Source: a virus | Lineage: Duplodnaviria; Caudoviricetes | Strand: one strand, 5' to 3' | Virus record (IMG/VR): IMGVR_UViG_3300038713_000166 | Location: 1 to 53,821 of that record | DNA: 53,821 bases | Part shown: in pieces, positions 5,098-13,237 of the stretch | How the letters are laid out: every line of letters begins with the position of its first letter | Numbering within the stretch: the first letter of the stretch is position 1 | The notes under the pieces: model-generated | Told to the model about the DNA's origin: nothing | The model's input: the letters and a program-made list of their open reading frames with translations, nothing else | The model's database searches: none | Position numbers and translations under genes: made by a program

Positions 5098-5210
5098 TGA
5101 ATGTTTCACGTGAAACATTAAAGAAGAAAAAGCCAAAGGGCAAACTGGTCGTTAATAGATTTTCCAAGATCCTCGCACCAGGGAAAAAACGAACAACGAG
5201 AATTACATGA
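5097..5210 (+). CDS. 37-aa basic peptide (not in ORF track)
   Basis: MNVSRETLKKKKPKGKLVVNRFSKILAPGKKRTTRIT*; TGATG overlap upstream and ATGA overlap downstream fill the gap exactly. Confidence 0.7.
   Translation: MNVSRETLKKKKPKGKLVVNRFSKILAPGKKRTTRIT
5102..5117. promoter_or_regulatory. parS-like palindrome, copy 1
   Basis: TGTTTCACGTGAAACA exact; the palindrome extends to 5100-5119. Confidence 0.8.
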
Positions 5211-5629
5211 GTGAGTTAGAATTCAAAAAAACGGGCAAAGGCTTAACAATAAAAGATAAAACAACAGGTAAACCTTTTGGTGCTATTGTTCCTAAAGCCA
5301 ATGTTGATAAACTAGGTAATAAATTTGAACTAAGAGTGGCTGCTGGAGTGCCAAAATCAATAAGAGAAGAATTACATAAAGAAAGAAAAGAAAAAAAACA
5401 AATAACAGCAGGACAAGCAAAACTTTCAGAGAGATTTAGTAAAGATAAAAGTAAAGTTAGTAAAGTTCATACAAAGACCATGTCAGATGCAAAAAAAATG
5501 GCATTGAAAATTTCAAAAGTTGGTGGGGGAGGTGATTTTCCCATCAAAATTGAACAAGGACCAGATTTAGTAAAAGATAAAAAGAAATTTAGTAGCGGTG
5601 GAATAGTTAATTTTAAAGGAATATTTTGA
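5207..5629 (+). CDS. Basic protein with C-terminal GG..NFKGIF tag (4)
   Basis: Ends KFSSGGIVNFKGIF. Confidence 0.8.
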   Translation: MSELEFKKTGKGLTIKDKTTGKPFGAIVPKANVDKLGNKFELRVAAGVPKSIREELHKERKEKKQITAGQAKLSERFSKDKSKVSKVHTKTMSDAKKMALKISKVGGGGDFPIKIEQGPDLVKDKKKFSSGGIVNFKGIF

Positions 5630-8067
5630 TGGCAACACCCCCTCGTCCCATAGGTCCGTTAGTAGACTCAGGCATAGATGCACCACAAGGTATGAATGTA
5701 GATATTCCGCAACCAGAAACATTTGAGGGTGGCGCAGAAGTTTTGCAAAGTCCAGATGGCGGTGCAATGATTCAAGCCTTGATGGGCGAAGAGGGTATTG
5801 AAGTACAGACTGAGCAATATGATCACAATGCAAACTTAGCAGAAGTGTTGGACGAAAAAATTCTTGATGAATTATCCTCCGAGCTACGTGGCCAGTTTGA
5901 AGAGGACGTTGAGTCTAGATCAGATTGGAAAGATGGTTATGTAAAGGGTCTAGATCTACTTGGTATTATGTACGAAGAAAGAACTGAGCCTTTTGATGGT
6001 GCAAGTGGTGTAACACATCCTTTGATTGCAGAATCAGTAACCCAGTTCCAAGCACAGTCTTATAAAGAACTTTTACCATCTGGTGGTCCAGTTAAGATAA
6101 ATATTATGGGAGATCGAACCTTGGAGCGTGAAGCACAAGCCACAAGAGTTCGTGAATTTATGAACTATCAGATTACGGAGGTCATGCAAGATTATGATAC
6201 CGACACTGACCAAATGCTTTTCTATCTCCCATTGGCGGGTTCTACTTTCAAGAAAATATACTTCGATCCAACTAGGGGTTCTGCTGTTTCGAAGTTCGTG
6301 CCTGCTGAAGATCTTGTTGTTCCGTATCAAGCTTCGGACATTAACACAGTCTCTAGAGTCACACATGTACTTAAGATGGATGAAAATGAAATCCGCAAAA
6401 TGCAAGTGGCTGGCATTTACAGAGATGTGGAAATCTCAGCATCAGATACAGATCAAGATGTCGTCCAAGAAAAGAAAGACGAAATAGAAGGAGCAAGTAA
6501 AGGATACTCGGATGAGACATATTCTGTACTTGAAATGCATACTAATTTAGACCTTGAGGGTTTTGAGGATCTTGGTGCAGATGGTCAGCCAACTGGAATC
6601 AAGTTACCTTACATTGTAACCTTGGACCAAGGATCTGGAGAAATTTTATCTATCACACGTAACTATGATCAAGGTGATAATTTAAAGAAAAAGAGACAGT
6701 ATTTTGTACATTATAAGTTCCTACCAGGATTGGGATTTTATGGATTTGGCCTAATACATATGATTGGTGGTCTTGGTAGGGCAGCAACAAGTATATTAAG
6801 ACAGTTAATCGATGCGGGAACTTTATCTAACCTACCCGCAGGTTTTAAGGCTAGAGGCATAAGAATTAGAAATGACGATGAACCTTTATCGCCTGGTGAG
6901 TTCCGAGACATTGATGCACCAGGTGGTGATCTTAGGAATTCTATAGTTCCCCTCCCCTTTAAGGAACCATCTGGTACGCTTTCAAATCTACTTGCTGCGT
7001 TGATTGAAGCGGGTAGACGATTTGTATCTATAGCTGATCAAAAGATTGGTGAGTCTAGTGGCGATATGCCAGTTGGATCTACAGTTGCAATGTTAGAACG
7101 TGGCATGAAAGTCATGTCAGCCATACACAAAAGATTACATTACGCACAGAAAACAGAGTTTAGATTACTTGCTAGAATTTTTGCAGAGAACTTACCACCA
7201 CAATATCCATATGAGGTAGCGGGTGGTCAACAACAAGTTTTTGCAGCAGATTTTGATGGAAGGGTAGATGTACTACCAGTATCAGATCCTAATATATTTT
7301 CTATGGCACAGAGGGTTGCGTTAGCACAAACACAACTACAGATTGCACAAAGCAATCCAGATATACACAACTTGCCTGCTGCATATAGACGTTTATATCA
7401 AGCACTTGAAGTTCAGAACATTGATGAAATCTTGCCTCCCAAGAAAGAACCAATGCCTATGGACCCAAGTATAGAGAATGCCAGGGCGTTACAGGGTGAG
7501 ATTGTGGTTGCCTTTCCTCAGCAAAACCACGATCAACATATGGCTAACCACATCCTTTTCATGAAAACCCCGATCGTAGCCACTTCTCCTAACGTCATGG
7601 CTATTCTTTATGCACACATTCTTGAGCACATTTCACAAAAGGCAAGTGCAATTGCACAGAGTGAAGCACAACAAGCAGTTCAACTACAATTACTTGCACA
7701 ACAAGGTGCAATAGATCCTGCAAACGTACCACCACAAATTACACCAGAGATTGTGGAAAGTCGTGTTGCAGAATTAGAAGCTCAGTTTACTGCCGATTTC
7801 TTACAACAAATGGCACCACCAGAGGGTCAAGAAGATCCATTGGTGCAAATAAGAAAGCAAGAATTAGCTATTAGAGCAGCAGAGGCAGAAAGATCTGCAC
7901 AAGTTGACCAACAAAAGTTAGGACTTGAGGCACAGAAACTTCAACAAAGAGCAGCAACAGATGCAGCGAGATTAGAAACGCAAGAAGAAATTGCTGATGA
8001 GCGTAACCTTGTTAATCGTGAAAGAATTCAAACACAGAGAGACATTGCTGCTGCCAGACGAGGGTAG
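5629..8067 (+). CDS. Portal protein (P22-like podovirus type)
   Basis: ~810 aa, downstream of terL; motifs GASGVTHPLIAE, YKFLPGLGFYGFG and LIDAGTLSN; coiled-coil C-terminus. Confidence 0.85.
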   Translation: MATPPRPIGPLVDSGIDAPQGMNVDIPQPETFEGGAEVLQSPDGGAMIQALMGEEGIEVQTEQYDHNANLAEVLDEKILDELSSELRGQFEEDVESRSDWKDGYVKGLDLLGIMYEERTEPFDGASGVTHPLIAESVTQFQAQSYKELLPSGGPVKINIMGDRTLEREAQATRVREFMNYQITEVMQDYDTDTDQMLFYLPLAGSTFKKIYFDPTRGSAVSKFVPAEDLVVPYQASDINTVSRVTHVLKMDENEIRKMQVAGIYRDVEISASDTDQDVVQEKKDEIEGASKGYSDETYSVLEMHTNLDLEGFEDLGADGQPTGIKLPYIVTLDQGSGEILSITRNYDQGDNLKKKRQYFVHYKFLPGLGFYGFGLIHMIGGLGRAATSILRQLIDAGTLSNLPAGFKARGIRIRNDDEPLSPGEFRDIDAPGGDLRNSIVPLPFKEPSGTLSNLLAALIEAGRRFVSIADQKIGESSGDMPVGSTVAMLERGMKVMSAIHKRLHYAQKTEFRLLARIFAENLPPQYPYEVAGGQQQVFAADFDGRVDVLPVSDPNIFSMAQRVALAQTQLQIAQSNPDIHNLPAAYRRLYQALEVQNIDEILPPKKEPMPMDPSIENARALQGEIVVAFPQQNHDQHMANHILFMKTPIVATSPNVMAILYAHILEHISQKASAIAQSEAQQAVQLQLLAQQGAIDPANVPPQITPEIVESRVAELEAQFTADFLQQMAPPEGQEDPLVQIRKQELAIRAAEAERSAQVDQQKLGLEAQKLQQRAATDAARLETQEEIADERNLVNRERIQTQRDIAAARRG

Positions 8068-12322: not shown

Positions 12323-12331
12323 GGAGATATC

Positions 12332-13237
12332 ATGGCTACTATAGAAAAAAATGAAGTTAAACAAGAAGAAAATGTTTCACGTGAAACAACAGAGGATAAA
12401 CCAGTTGAAGTAGAATTACCTCTTGGTCTTGACGAAAAAGATAAGAAACCCGAGGAAGTCACTGAAACTAAAGAAGAAAAAAAAGAAGACGAAGTAACGG
12501 AATACAGTAAAAAGGTTCAAACAAGAATAAACCAAATTACTGATCGTTACAGAAAAGAACAAAGAGATAAAGAGGAAGCTGTACGTCTAGCTCAAACGTT
12601 AAAAGATCAAAATGAAAAACTTCAAACTCAAATATCAAATTTAGATAAAGGTTATATATCTGAGTACGGCACAAGGATTGAGTCTCAGCTTGCTTCTGCT
12701 TCTGACGCACTTAAAAAAGCATATGAAGTAAATGACACTGACGCAATAGTTAAAGCACAGCAAGCGATTGCTAAGGCAACCATTGAACAAGAAAGACATA
12801 GAATAGCCAAAGAAAGACAAGAGCAAAATGTTTCACGTGAAACATCTCAGCCTCAAACTATTCAACAACCACAACAACCCGTCCAACAAGAGCCAGATCC
12901 AAAGGCAAAAGCATGGGCAGAAAAGAACACTTGGTTTGGTGAAAATGAGGAAATGACCTATCTTGCTTTAGGCTTAGATAAAAAATTAGTACAAGAAGGA
13001 TTTGACTTAGGAAGTGATGAGTACTATTCTGAGTTAGATAAACGAATTAGGATAAGATTTCCTGAAGAGTTTAAACAAGAAACGAGTGGTGTTAACAGAG
13101 TCGCCCCTGCTGATAGCACCGCATCTCGCAGTAATTCAAAGGGACGCAGGACTGTGAAGTTGTCGCCATCACAAGTTGCTATGGCAAAAAGACTGAATGT
13201 TCCGCTAGAAGAATATGCTAAATATGTAAAAGAGTAG
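12332..13237 (+). CDS. Probable capsid scaffolding protein
   Basis: Acidic coiled-coil upstream of the capsid genes; C-terminus VKLSPSQVAMAKRLNVPLEEYAK; AAGGAG RBS. Confidence 0.7.
   Translation: MATIEKNEVKQEENVSRETTEDKPVEVELPLGLDEKDKKPEEVTETKEEKKEDEVTEYSKKVQTRINQITDRYRKEQRDKEEAVRLAQTLKDQNEKLQTQISNLDKGYISEYGTRIESQLASASDALKKAYEVNDTDAIVKAQQAIAKATIEQERHRIAKERQEQNVSRETSQPQTIQQPQQPVQQEPDPKAKAWAEKNTWFGENEEMTYLALGLDKKLVQEGFDLGSDEYYSELDKRIRIRFPEEFKQETSGVNRVAPADSTASRSNSKGRRTVKLSPSQVAMAKRLNVPLEEYAKYVKE
12373..12388. promoter_or_regulatory. parS-like palindrome, copy 2
   Basis: TGTTTCACGTGAAACA exact, inside the scaffold gene. Confidence 0.8.
12829..12844. promoter_or_regulatory. parS-like palindrome, copy 3
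   Basis: TGTTTCACGTGAAACA exact, inside the scaffold gene. Confidence 0.8.

What the first reader, a model, noticed from the sequence alone, without database searches (positions are those of the whole stretch)
5102..12844. Three perfect bacterial parS centromere sites inside late genes of a phage with no ParB
Seen: the 16-bp palindrome TGTTTCACGTGAAACA occurs exactly at 5102, 12373 and 12829. All three lie in coding sequence (a 37-aa ORF and twice in the scaffold gene), always read as NVSRET with the same codons through the 16-mer, and have unrelated flanks. In the scaffold they sit in low-complexity linkers that would tolerate an imposed DNA motif. Established: this is the canonical chromosomal parS bound by ParB/Spo0J (Bacillus, Caulobacter and many others); ParB-parS loads SMC and engages ParA. 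A rough estimate assuming ~35% GC gives about 1e-5 chance per genome for even one copy. I recognise no parA, parB or integrase here. Inference: the phage recruits host ParB(/ParA/SMC) to position or segregate its DNA, for example in an episomal carrier state, or titrates ParB to disturb host segregation and division.
Basis: partly seen in the sequence, partly recalled or inferred. Interest (0 to 1): 0.92.

Follow-up and report, generated by a model that had tools for sequence, protein, structure and literature searches.

The report
Host centromere sites on marine phage
A virus from the most abundant known group of ocean phages carries three perfect copies of the bacterial chromosome-partition site parS but no partition genes, so it most likely borrows its host's ParB protein, as only Bacillus phage phi29 was known to do.

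Summary
TGTTTCACGTGAAACA occurs exactly at 5102, 12373 and 12829, with no 1-2-mismatch copies; shuffles expect 0.01.

The window is a 92%-complete, 53.8-kb HTVC023P-type marine podophage. It has no ParB_N, HTH_ParB, ParA-type ATPase or integrase.

Selection acts on the DNA, not the peptide:
- 18 of 80 terL relatives carry the exact 16-mer at clade-specific, non-homologous places.
- Carriers span 34-63% GC.
- VSRET is encoded by the motif at 73 sites and otherwise once in 1.14 Mb.
- The only variant seen, TGTTCCACGTGAAACA, changes the N position of the B. subtilis consensus and is the form phi29 carries.

Five of 5 SAR11 genomes have a single such site about 1.45 kb from their one parB.

Best reading: the sites load host ParB, for phi29-like hitch-hiking of unpackaged genomes. 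ParB titration is the main rival. Binding is untested, the host is unidentified, and many relatives lack the site, including HTVC023P.

This is a new variant of a known kind. The scan also flagged host-type parS sites in a relative on other DNA (e1-6265451).

The parts
5102..5117 (.). parS-1: exact 16-bp chromosomal-type parS palindrome, at codons 2-7 of the small ORF upstream of the portal gene
   Evidence: Exact match, read. In 8 close relatives a 22-bp block ATGAATGTTTCACGTGAAACAT is invariant while the flanks vary at third codon positions.
5097..5210 (+). 37-aa basic ORF (MNVSRET...) that hosts parS-1; probably a real small gene
   Evidence: Listed as 5094..5210 from a TTG; the ATG is at 5097. 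Conserved at 83-100% aa identity in L120, L121, L122, L123, L125, L131 and L179, with a codon-like substitution pattern. No PHROG match.
12373..12388 (.). parS-2: exact 16-mer in the acidic N-terminal region of the putative scaffold gene
   Evidence: In the 26-protein alignment NVSRET is present only where the DNA motif is (WIN, L121); L198 has it at a different column.
12829..12844 (.). parS-3: exact 16-mer in the Q/P-rich linker of the putative scaffold gene
   Evidence: The linker is variable in all 26 homologues, and only WIN, L121 and L011 carry the motif there.
12332..13237 (+). putative scaffolding protein gene (301 aa) carrying parS-2 and parS-3 in its two low-complexity stretches
   Evidence: PHROG 28737, E 9e-70, function unknown; no Pfam family. 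It lies between a GroES-like gene (Cpn10) and the major capsid gene. The scaffold role is inferred from position and composition.

Best explanation
The three 16-mers are working copies of the host's chromosomal centromere site parS, kept by selection on the DNA itself. ParB loads at each site as a CTP-gated clamp, spreads over the neighbouring 5-15 kb (terS, terL, portal and head genes) and builds one partition complex per phage genome. The host ParA system can then position and segregate that complex.

Most likely use: unpackaged phage genomes are retained and passed to daughter cells during long or stalled infections of slow-growing hosts. This would be the non-sporulating counterpart of the way phi29 uses Spo0J-parS.

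Shown here: the sites are host-type, selected at the DNA level, clustered, lack a phage ParB, and match the parS of the candidate host clade.

Inferred only: ParB binding, spreading and the purpose. I put host ParB binding at about 0.8 and the hitch-hiking purpose at about 0.45.
For: 1. Excess over chance: three exact copies against 0.01 expected.

2. No phage reader or partner: ParB_N, HTH_ParB, AAA_31 (ParA-type) and integrase are all absent at E<=1 in six frames. Thirty ORFs scanned with Pfam show none either. ParB_N is above cut-off in 0 of 50 related records, 5 of them at least 90% complete.

3. Recurrence in diverged relatives: 18 of 80 terL relatives (67-99% identity, 782 kb) carry 21 exact copies, and 2 more loci carry one 1-mismatch copy. 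Whole records: 18 of 50 have a match, while the reversed-pattern control has 0 of 50. Thirty-three of 119 motif-bearing IMG/VR loci are kin of this phage.

4. DNA-level selection: carriers span 34-63% GC in 64 distinct sequence contexts. VSRET is encoded by the motif at 73 sites and otherwise once in 1.14 Mb. Scaffold homologues lack the peptide wherever the motif is absent. A 22-bp block is invariant among 8 close relatives whose flanks vary.

5. ParB-like specificity: the only variant seen is TGTTCCACGTGAAACA. It changes the N position of the B. subtilis consensus TGTTNCACGTGAAACA (PMC7022226, Table 1) and is the form phi29 carries four times.

6. Candidate host: 5 of 5 SAR11 genomes have exactly one site. 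Three are exact and two differ only at the outermost base. Each lies about 1.45 kb from the genome's single ParB_N gene. The single site of HTVC027P equals one of these SAR11 variants.

7. Clustering like a centromere: complete or near-complete kin have 1-3 sites within 0.15-7.3 kb.

8. Precedent: phi29 has host parS sites, and there is published evidence that Spo0J segregates its genome into the prespore (PMC2731898, passages read).
Against: - No binding or in vivo datum exists for any phage of this group.
- The host of this window is not identified. SAR11 is inferred from 36-42% scaffold identity to HTVC023P and HTVC027P. Its 36% GC is above the 26-28% GC of the three SAR11 par loci.
- The site is dispensable for lytic growth. 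HTVC023P, 023Pt_psg01, DSL-LC04, CRP-901, GB2A and MinM2 have none at up to 2 mismatches. Relatives covering 30-40 kb also lack it: G005, G010, G015, G033.
- The group is described as lytic and without integrases (bioRxiv 10.1101/2019.12.14.876532, passages read). No carrier state is reported in the passages I read.
- The marked preference for the zone from about 2 kb upstream of terS to the scaffold gene is not predicted by a pure segregation role.
- Whether SAR11 has SMC or MipZ could not be settled.
Confidence: 0.5

Rival explanations
1. Centromere decoy. The sites bind host ParB, but the purpose is titration. SAR11-type hosts have one chromosomal parS, so replicating phage genomes with 1-5 sites each would draw ParB off the host origin. 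That would derail chromosome segregation and the cell-cycle steps coupled to it, keeping the infected cell undivided.
For: - The host clade has only one site per genome, against three on this phage.
- Only perfect copies, or copies changed at a consensus-tolerated position, are kept, as expected if they must compete with the host site.
- ParB is coupled to division control in alphaproteobacteria through MipZ (PMC7022226, passages read).
- The latent period is long, about 18 h for HTVC027P (PMC12753301, passages read).
Against: - A sponge should gain from many dispersed sites. These genomes keep only 1-5, clustered in one zone.
- A true MipZ could not be shown in SAR11, because the Pfam model also hits ParA/MinD-type proteins in all 14 control genomes.
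- Many relatives do without the site.
Confidence: 0.2
2. Copy-number timer. Host ParB loaded at the sites spreads over the packaging and head genes and dampens their expression while phage genomes are few. As genomes replicate, ParB is diluted over many copies and the late genes come on.
For: Sites sit at the start of, or inside, the late packaging and head block in all kin examined: upstream of terS or terL, upstream of portal, before groES, and in the scaffold gene. ParB-family clamps can silence promoters, as KorB does on RK2; I recall this and it is named in earlier scan notes, but I did not read the paper.
Against: From recalled knowledge, chromosomal ParB spreading has little effect on transcription in the species studied. 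No promoter mapping was done here. Relatives without sites still time their late genes.
Confidence: 0.07
3. The 16-mer is read by a phage-encoded protein, either as a pac or terminase recognition site or as the operator of an unrecognised DNA-binding protein. Its identity to parS would then be convergence or use of a ParB-like helix-turn-helix.
For: - Sites lie near terS and terL in many kin. Distant kin have 3-5 copies in the roughly 1-1.7 kb between terS and terL (L021, L060, L072).
- About half of the window's ORFs have no known family.
- Other windows of this scan showed phage ParB-methylase fusions with their own parS-like sites (e1-3442493, e1-3539737).
Against: - No ParB_N or HTH_ParB in the window, and none above cut-off in 0 of 50 kin. 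The C5 methylase has no extra domain.
- A pac site should be fixed in place and universal. Here it is absent from relatives that keep the homologous TerS and TerL, and its position changes between clades.
- The same exact 16-mer occurs in unrelated viral records, including phi29-like ones, 49 of 50 of which lack ParB_N above cut-off. The common reader is more simply the host's.
- The tolerated variant is the one natural parS sites tolerate (PMC7022226).
Confidence: 0.08
4. No DNA function. The copies reflect a repeated peptide (NVSRET), a recent duplication or chance.
For: All three window copies are in one reading frame and share 18 bp.
Against: - Flanks are unrelated.
- The peptide never occurs with other codons in kin: 1 non-motif VSRET in any of the six frames of 1.14 Mb.
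- Many kin copies are intergenic, lying directly between a stop and a start codon.
- Chance expectation is 0.01.
Confidence: 0.02

Closest known systems
Host parS sites of virulent Bacillus phage phi29, used with Spo0J for entrapment of the genome in spores (Meijer et al. 2005, as cited in PMC2731898; passages of PMC2731898 read)
   Same: Both are lytic podoviruses with no parB that carry several copies of the host's chromosomal parS, some inside coding sequence. In phi29, one search finds four copies with 1 mismatch plus one with 3 mismatches, against 0.20 expected. Three of the four 1-mismatch copies lie in genes 10, 15 and 17. The phi29 variant TGTTCCACGTGAAACA is the only variant seen in this phage group.
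   Different: - phi29's use is tied to sporulation and works together with Spo0A boxes. The cultured relatives here infect SAR11 and Roseobacter, which do not form spores (recalled knowledge).
- The two phage lineages are unrelated (54 kb against 19 kb protein-primed).
- Here the sites cluster in one zone near the packaging and head genes instead of being spread along the genome.
- The trait is patchy within the group.
Chromosomal ParABS centromeres (B. subtilis, Caulobacter, Hyphomonas; review PMC7022226, Table 1 and passages read)
   Same: The 16-bp palindrome is identical; Hyphomonas uses TGTTTCACGTGAAACA. There are few copies, they are clustered, and they can lie inside genes. The SAR11 site lies in the ORF upstream of parA and is also read NVSRET.
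   Different: No parA or parB is encoded in cis, and the replicon is a virulent phage. Whether the sites are origin-proximal is unknown. The GC-skew minimum and iteron-like repeats lie near 49.6 kb, which is 9-17 kb from the sites if the genome is circular.
SGI1 hijacking the parABS system of its IncC helper plasmid (PMC10954446; search listing and start of abstract only)
   Same: A mobile element exploits a partition system encoded by another replicon.
   Different: The exploited system belongs to a helper plasmid, not the host chromosome, and the element is an integrative island. I did not read the paper beyond the listing.
Phage-encoded ParB/KorB-type proteins with dispersed operator-like palindromes (earlier scan notes e1-3442493, e1-3539737, e1-5916946)
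   Same: Palindromes of parS type occur on phage genomes, often inside genes.
   Different: Those phages encode their own ParB-type reader and use their own spelling of the site. Here the spelling is the universal chromosomal one and no reader is encoded.

Membership tests
Chromosomal-type parS (ParB/Spo0J binding site) | 16-bp palindrome matching the consensus TGTTNCACGTGAAACA | tested here: met
   Three exact copies. Consensus taken from PMC7022226, Table 1.
Chromosomal-type parS (ParB/Spo0J binding site) | A cognate ParB that uses this sequence is present in the cell | tested here: inconclusive
   Five of 5 SAR11 genomes have one such site about 1.45 kb from their one ParB_N gene. The host of this window is only inferred from kinship to SAR11 phages.
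Chromosomal-type parS (ParB/Spo0J binding site) | Specific binding and CTP-dependent loading of ParB | not testable with these tools
   Needs EMSA, BLI or ChIP. The complex predictor does not take DNA.
Chromosomal-type parS (ParB/Spo0J binding site) | Maintained by selection on the DNA sequence | tested here: met
   Exact copies at non-homologous places in 18 of 80 kin loci. There are 73 motif-encoded VSRET sites against 1 other. A 22-bp block is invariant amid variable flanks.
Self-contained ParABS partition cassette (plasmid or prophage type, such as P1) | parA and parB encoded next to the centromere | tested here: not met
   No PF02195, PF17762 or PF13614 at E<=1.
phi29-type orphan host parS on a virulent phage | Host-type parS copies on a phage lacking parB and integrase | tested here: met
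   The phi29 sites were confirmed.
phi29-type orphan host parS on a virulent phage | Coupling to sporulation (spore-forming host, Spo0A boxes) | tested here: not met
   Cultured kin infect Pelagibacter and Roseobacter. That these do not sporulate is recalled knowledge. Spo0A boxes were not searched for.
pac / terminase recognition site | Present at a fixed place in all phages sharing the homologous terminase | tested here: not met
   Absent at up to 2 mismatches from HTVC023P, 023Pt_psg01, DSL-LC04, CRP-901, GB2A and MinM2 and from 32 of 50 kin records. Position is clade-specific.

The most novel reading that the evidence does not exclude
Orphan host centromeres may be a general, overlooked, DNA-only phage strategy. 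Members of the most abundant known marine phage group, phi29-like phages and other unrelated viral lineages would all plant perfect host parS sites in their genomes. This would seize the host's single-centromere ParABS machine, either to have unpackaged genomes inherited through cell divisions of slow-growing oligotrophs (a plasmid-like carrier state with no plasmid genes) or to out-compete the chromosome's one centromere and stop the host cell cycle. Where no intergenic space is free, the sites are written into tolerant protein linkers.
Probability: 0.3. Interest if true: 0.9.

Novelty: new variant of a known kind. Interest (0 to 1): 0.74.

Why it matters
[quoted passage not shown] Their hosts include SAR11, the most abundant marine bacterium.

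A cis-acting device that plugs a lytic phage genome into the host's chromosome-partition machinery would bear on several questions:
- how infections persist in slow-growing cells
- the pseudolysogeny or carrier states often invoked for oligotrophic oceans
- how phages arrest the host cell cycle

It would also extend a mechanism known only from sporulating Bacillus (phi29) to non-sporulating hosts and to an unrelated phage lineage.

The finding is directly testable. HTVC027P/HTCC1062 is a cultured pair in which the phage carries one site identical to a natural SAR11 variant. The site can also be removed by synonymous recoding.

I found no paper holding both 'pelagiphage' and 'parS'. The two HTVC023P-group papers I searched do not mention parS or ParB. 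Their supplements were not available to me.

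Tried and rejected
Peptide-motif reading: rejected. Scaffold homologues have NVSRET only where the DNA motif is. Kin show 73 motif-encoded VSRET sites against 1 other.

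pac-site reading: rejected as the general explanation. The site is absent from relatives that keep the homologous terS and terL, and its position differs between clades.

Phage-encoded ParB: none found. The Pfam and PHROG scans covered 37 of the 87 ORFs called, plus the 37-aa ORF. The other 50 ORFs were covered only by the six-frame family searches.

Half-site enrichment: none.

Terminator or hairpin reading: considered from the sequence only. The stem would be 6 bp with a 4-nt loop, and no T-run follows consistently. It was not folded.

MipZ in SAR11: inconclusive. The model also hits ParA/MinD-type proteins in all 14 controls, and the SAR11 hits are partial.

SMC hinge in SAR11: 0 of 5, but the control also missed Caulobacter and Bacteroides, so this says nothing.

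Megablast of 1000-13300 against named phages: only a 507-bp match at 74% identity to Prochlorococcus phage P-TIM68.

terL tree: the careful search did not finish, so the quick IQ-TREE result was used. Several rows have identical terL and are not independent. Loci L001-L119 were selected for having the motif, so they say nothing about its frequency.

Frequency estimates rest on L120-L199, which are fragments (12-60% complete for the 50 records checked). An apparent absence may therefore be a coverage artefact. For example, L171's locus lacks the site, but its record has one at position 1409.

Not used: the search for homologous proteins, structure prediction, complex prediction, read mapping.

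Full report
OBSERVATION. TGTTTCACGTGAAACA occurs exactly at 5102, 12373 and 12829, with no further copy at up to 2 mismatches. One hundred dinucleotide-preserving shuffles gave a mean of 0.01, and none reached 3. The shared block is 18 bp (AATGTTTCACGTGAAACA) and the flanks are unrelated. Site 1 covers codons 2-7 of a 37-aa ORF (5097-5210). Sites 2 and 3 lie in the acidic N-terminus and the Q/P-rich linker of a 301-aa gene (12332-13237), which sits between a GroES-like gene and the capsid gene. All three are read N-V-S-R-E-T. One frame of the palindrome holds TGA on both strands, so only two frames are possible. This is the only palindrome of 12 bp or more that repeats in the window, and isolated half-sites are not enriched.

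WHAT THE GENOME IS. The window is a whole IMG/VR virus record of 53,821 bp, estimated 92% complete. It has these genes:
- TerS (49800-50321)
- TerL (2527-3987)
- portal (5626-8067)
- GroES-like gene, putative scaffold and Mu-gpT-like capsid
- family-A DNA polymerase, UvrD-type helicase, AEP primase and SNF2 helicase
- C5 cytosine methylase, Mom-like protein and an HTH_3 protein

The nearest named phages by scaffold protein are phage 023Pt_psg01 and DSL-LC04 and Pelagibacter phages HTVC027P and HTVC023P (36-42% identity). Roseobacter phages CRP-901 and CRP-902 and some Caulobacter and cyanobacterial phages are more distant. [quoted passage not shown]

NO PHAGE PARTITION GENES. Six-frame family searches of the window find no ParB_N, HTH_ParB, AAA_31 (ParA-type) or phage integrase at E<=1, while the control genomes do respond. 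Among 50 related records, 5 of them at least 90% complete, none has ParB_N above cut-off. One 122-kb distant record has a sub-threshold hit at E 0.0014.

SELECTION ACTS ON THE DNA. Thirty-three of them encode kin of this phage's terS, terL, portal, head or replication genes; four more hit only the SNF2 helicase at 22-33% and I do not count them.

In a sample chosen by TerL and not by the motif (80 loci, 67-99% identity, 782 kb):
- 18 loci hold 21 exact copies.
- 2 loci hold a single 1-mismatch copy.
- No locus holds a 2-mismatch copy.

I estimate the chance expectation for 782 kb at about 3e-4. Over the whole records of 50 of these 80 loci, 18 have a match, and the reversed-pattern control has none. 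Motif-bearing kin range from 34 to 63% GC, and the copies sit in 64 distinct 28-nt contexts. A is preferred just outside the palindrome (83 of 128 folded positions).

In six-frame translations of 1.14 Mb of kin DNA, VSRET is encoded by the motif 146 times (73 sites counted on both strands) and by other codons once. In an alignment of 26 scaffold homologues the peptide appears only where the DNA motif is: WIN and L121 twice each, L198 at a different N-terminal column, and L011 in the linker. Everywhere else these stretches are variable low-complexity sequence. Among 8 close relatives a 22-bp block is invariant while the flanking codons vary at third positions.

WHERE THE SITES LIE. Position is clade-specific:
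- Window clade: the small ORF before portal, plus the scaffold gene.
- terL ~70% clade: directly after a stop codon between portal and groES, 4.7-10.2 kb downstream of the terL start.
- Another clade: the scaffold N-terminus.
- terL ~60% clades: 0.1-0.2 kb upstream of terL.
- Distant kin (terL 28-29%): 3-5 copies in the roughly 1-1.7 kb between terS and terL.

Sister clades with 9-11 kb of coverage on the relevant side have none, for example L128, L139, L133 and L187. Among the 20 TerL-selected loci with at least 9 kb downstream of terL, 7 have an exact copy and 2 a 1-mismatch copy (my count from the labels).

Complete or near-complete kin carry 1-3 copies within 0.15-7.3 kb, always between about 2 kb upstream of terS and the head genes. 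In G076 all three lie in one 1652-aa ORF, all in the VSRET frame. No copy was found in the interior of a replication module or in a tail module, although conserved genes there would have been recognised. The feature is therefore accessory, repeatedly gained, moved or lost, but confined to one genome zone. Where intergenic space is lacking, it is written into tolerant coding linkers.

THE CANDIDATE HOST USES THE SAME SITE. I reached SAR11 genomes with a recalled 16S probe and examined five. Each has exactly one site, 1.45-1.47 kb from its single ParB_N gene. Three are exact. Two differ only at the outermost base (CGTTT... and AGTTT...). Hits with 2 mismatches are at control level. In L330 the site lies in the ORF upstream of parA and parB and is also read N-V-S-R-E-T. 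HTVC027P, which infects Pelagibacter HTCC1062, has one site, CGTTTCACGTGAAACA, in an intergenic gap near terS. That spelling is identical to one SAR11 chromosomal variant. The host of this window itself remains unidentified.

PRECEDENT AND WIDER PATTERN. Virulent Bacillus phage phi29 is reported to carry five parS sites, with published evidence that Spo0J segregates its genome into the prespore (PMC2731898, passages read). The lead to this paper came from earlier scan note e1-5887401. I confirmed the sites: four copies of TGTTCCACGTGAAACA (shown in the table as its reverse complement, TGTTTCACGTGGAACA) plus one 3-mismatch copy, against 0.20 expected. Three of the four lie inside genes. This variant changes the N position of the B. 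subtilis consensus TGTTNCACGTGAAACA (PMC7022226, Table 1). It is also the only variant found in the present phage group.

Of 50 other motif-bearing viral records that are not kin, only 1 has ParB_N above cut-off. Two of 5 small records tested, both 15.5-15.9 kb with inverted terminal repeats, encode a protein-primed family-B polymerase and so are phi29-like. Orphan host-type parS thus seems widespread among viral contigs.

MECHANISM. Best reading: host ParB loads at the sites, spreads over the packaging and head region and forms one partition complex per phage genome. The host ParA system then positions and segregates it, so unpackaged genomes are retained and inherited during long or stalled infections. 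The HTVC027P latent period is about 18 h (PMC12753301, passages read).

Rivals:
- ParB titration. One host site faces many phage sites, which could derail host segregation and division.
- A copy-number timer that dampens late genes.
- An unrecognised phage-encoded reader or a pac function.

The last is disfavoured by the patchy, mobile distribution among phages that keep the homologous terminase, and by the same 16-mer recurring in unrelated viruses. None of the purposes is shown. The zone preference is not explained by segregation alone. It may reflect origin-proximity: the GC-skew minimum and GTGTAACA-type repeats lie at about 49.6 kb. It could also reflect the start of the late block.

NOVELTY. 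The principle is known from phi29. An analogous hijack of a plasmid's ParABS by SGI1 is in print (PMC10954446, listing only). What is new is its occurrence in an unrelated, globally dominant marine phage group with non-sporulating hosts, together with the comparative evidence for DNA-level selection, the zone preference and the embedding in protein linkers. No paper in the library holds both 'pelagiphage' and 'parS'. A search requiring parS, ParB, bacteriophage and 'host ParB' together found none. I did not examine that window.

LIMITS. There are no binding data and the host is unknown. Most relatives are fragments, so absences are soft. Several loci are near-duplicates. The tree is a quick one. 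The MipZ and SMC checks were inconclusive.

Noticed in passing
window 50612-50683, 51722-51778, 52695-52773: Three arrays of a G-rich heptamer (GGTTCGG-type, up to about 8 units) lie roughly 1 kb apart in the AT-rich region downstream of terS. On the other strand one array lies in a short PEPEP-type ORF (52657-52803). Function unknown.
   Followed up: no
window 49534-49799: The divergent intergenic region between the minus-strand early or replication block and terS holds at least six direct and inverted copies of a GTGTAACA-type 8-mer. It coincides with the cumulative GC-skew minimum. It is a candidate origin or operator region.
   Followed up: partly
L330 32-47 (SAR11 genome G088); also L328, L329: The single chromosomal parS of SAR11 lies inside the ORF upstream of parA and parB. 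It is read N-V-S-R-E-T in the same frame as the phage copies, with the same A/T just outside the palindrome.
   Followed up: partly
L001-L069 non-kin loci (records G089-G138): Forty-nine of 50 other viral records with an exact host-type parS have no ParB_N above cut-off. Several are 12-18 kb records with 3-4 copies, and 2 of 5 tested encode a protein-primed PolB and carry inverted terminal repeats, so they are phi29-like. Orphan host parS may be common in viromes.
   Followed up: partly
L333 7997, 9035, 9716 (record G076): A 92%-complete relative has one exact and two 1-mismatch parS copies, all inside one 1652-aa ORF between terL and portal and all in the VSRET frame.
   Followed up: no
window 10136-10642: This is the only megablast match to a named phage: 74% DNA identity over 507 bp to Prochlorococcus phage P-TIM68. 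The two copies of that record annotate the region as PurM and as ferredoxin. The neighbouring gene 11039-11722 matches the PHROG 'ferredoxin' family at E 1e-107. It is a probable shared auxiliary metabolic gene.
   Followed up: no
window 592-1023: An HlyC-type (RTX toxin acyltransferase family) lysine acyltransferase homologue (Pfam E 1e-11) lies two genes upstream of terL. The group paper also lists HlyC in its gene maps.
   Followed up: no
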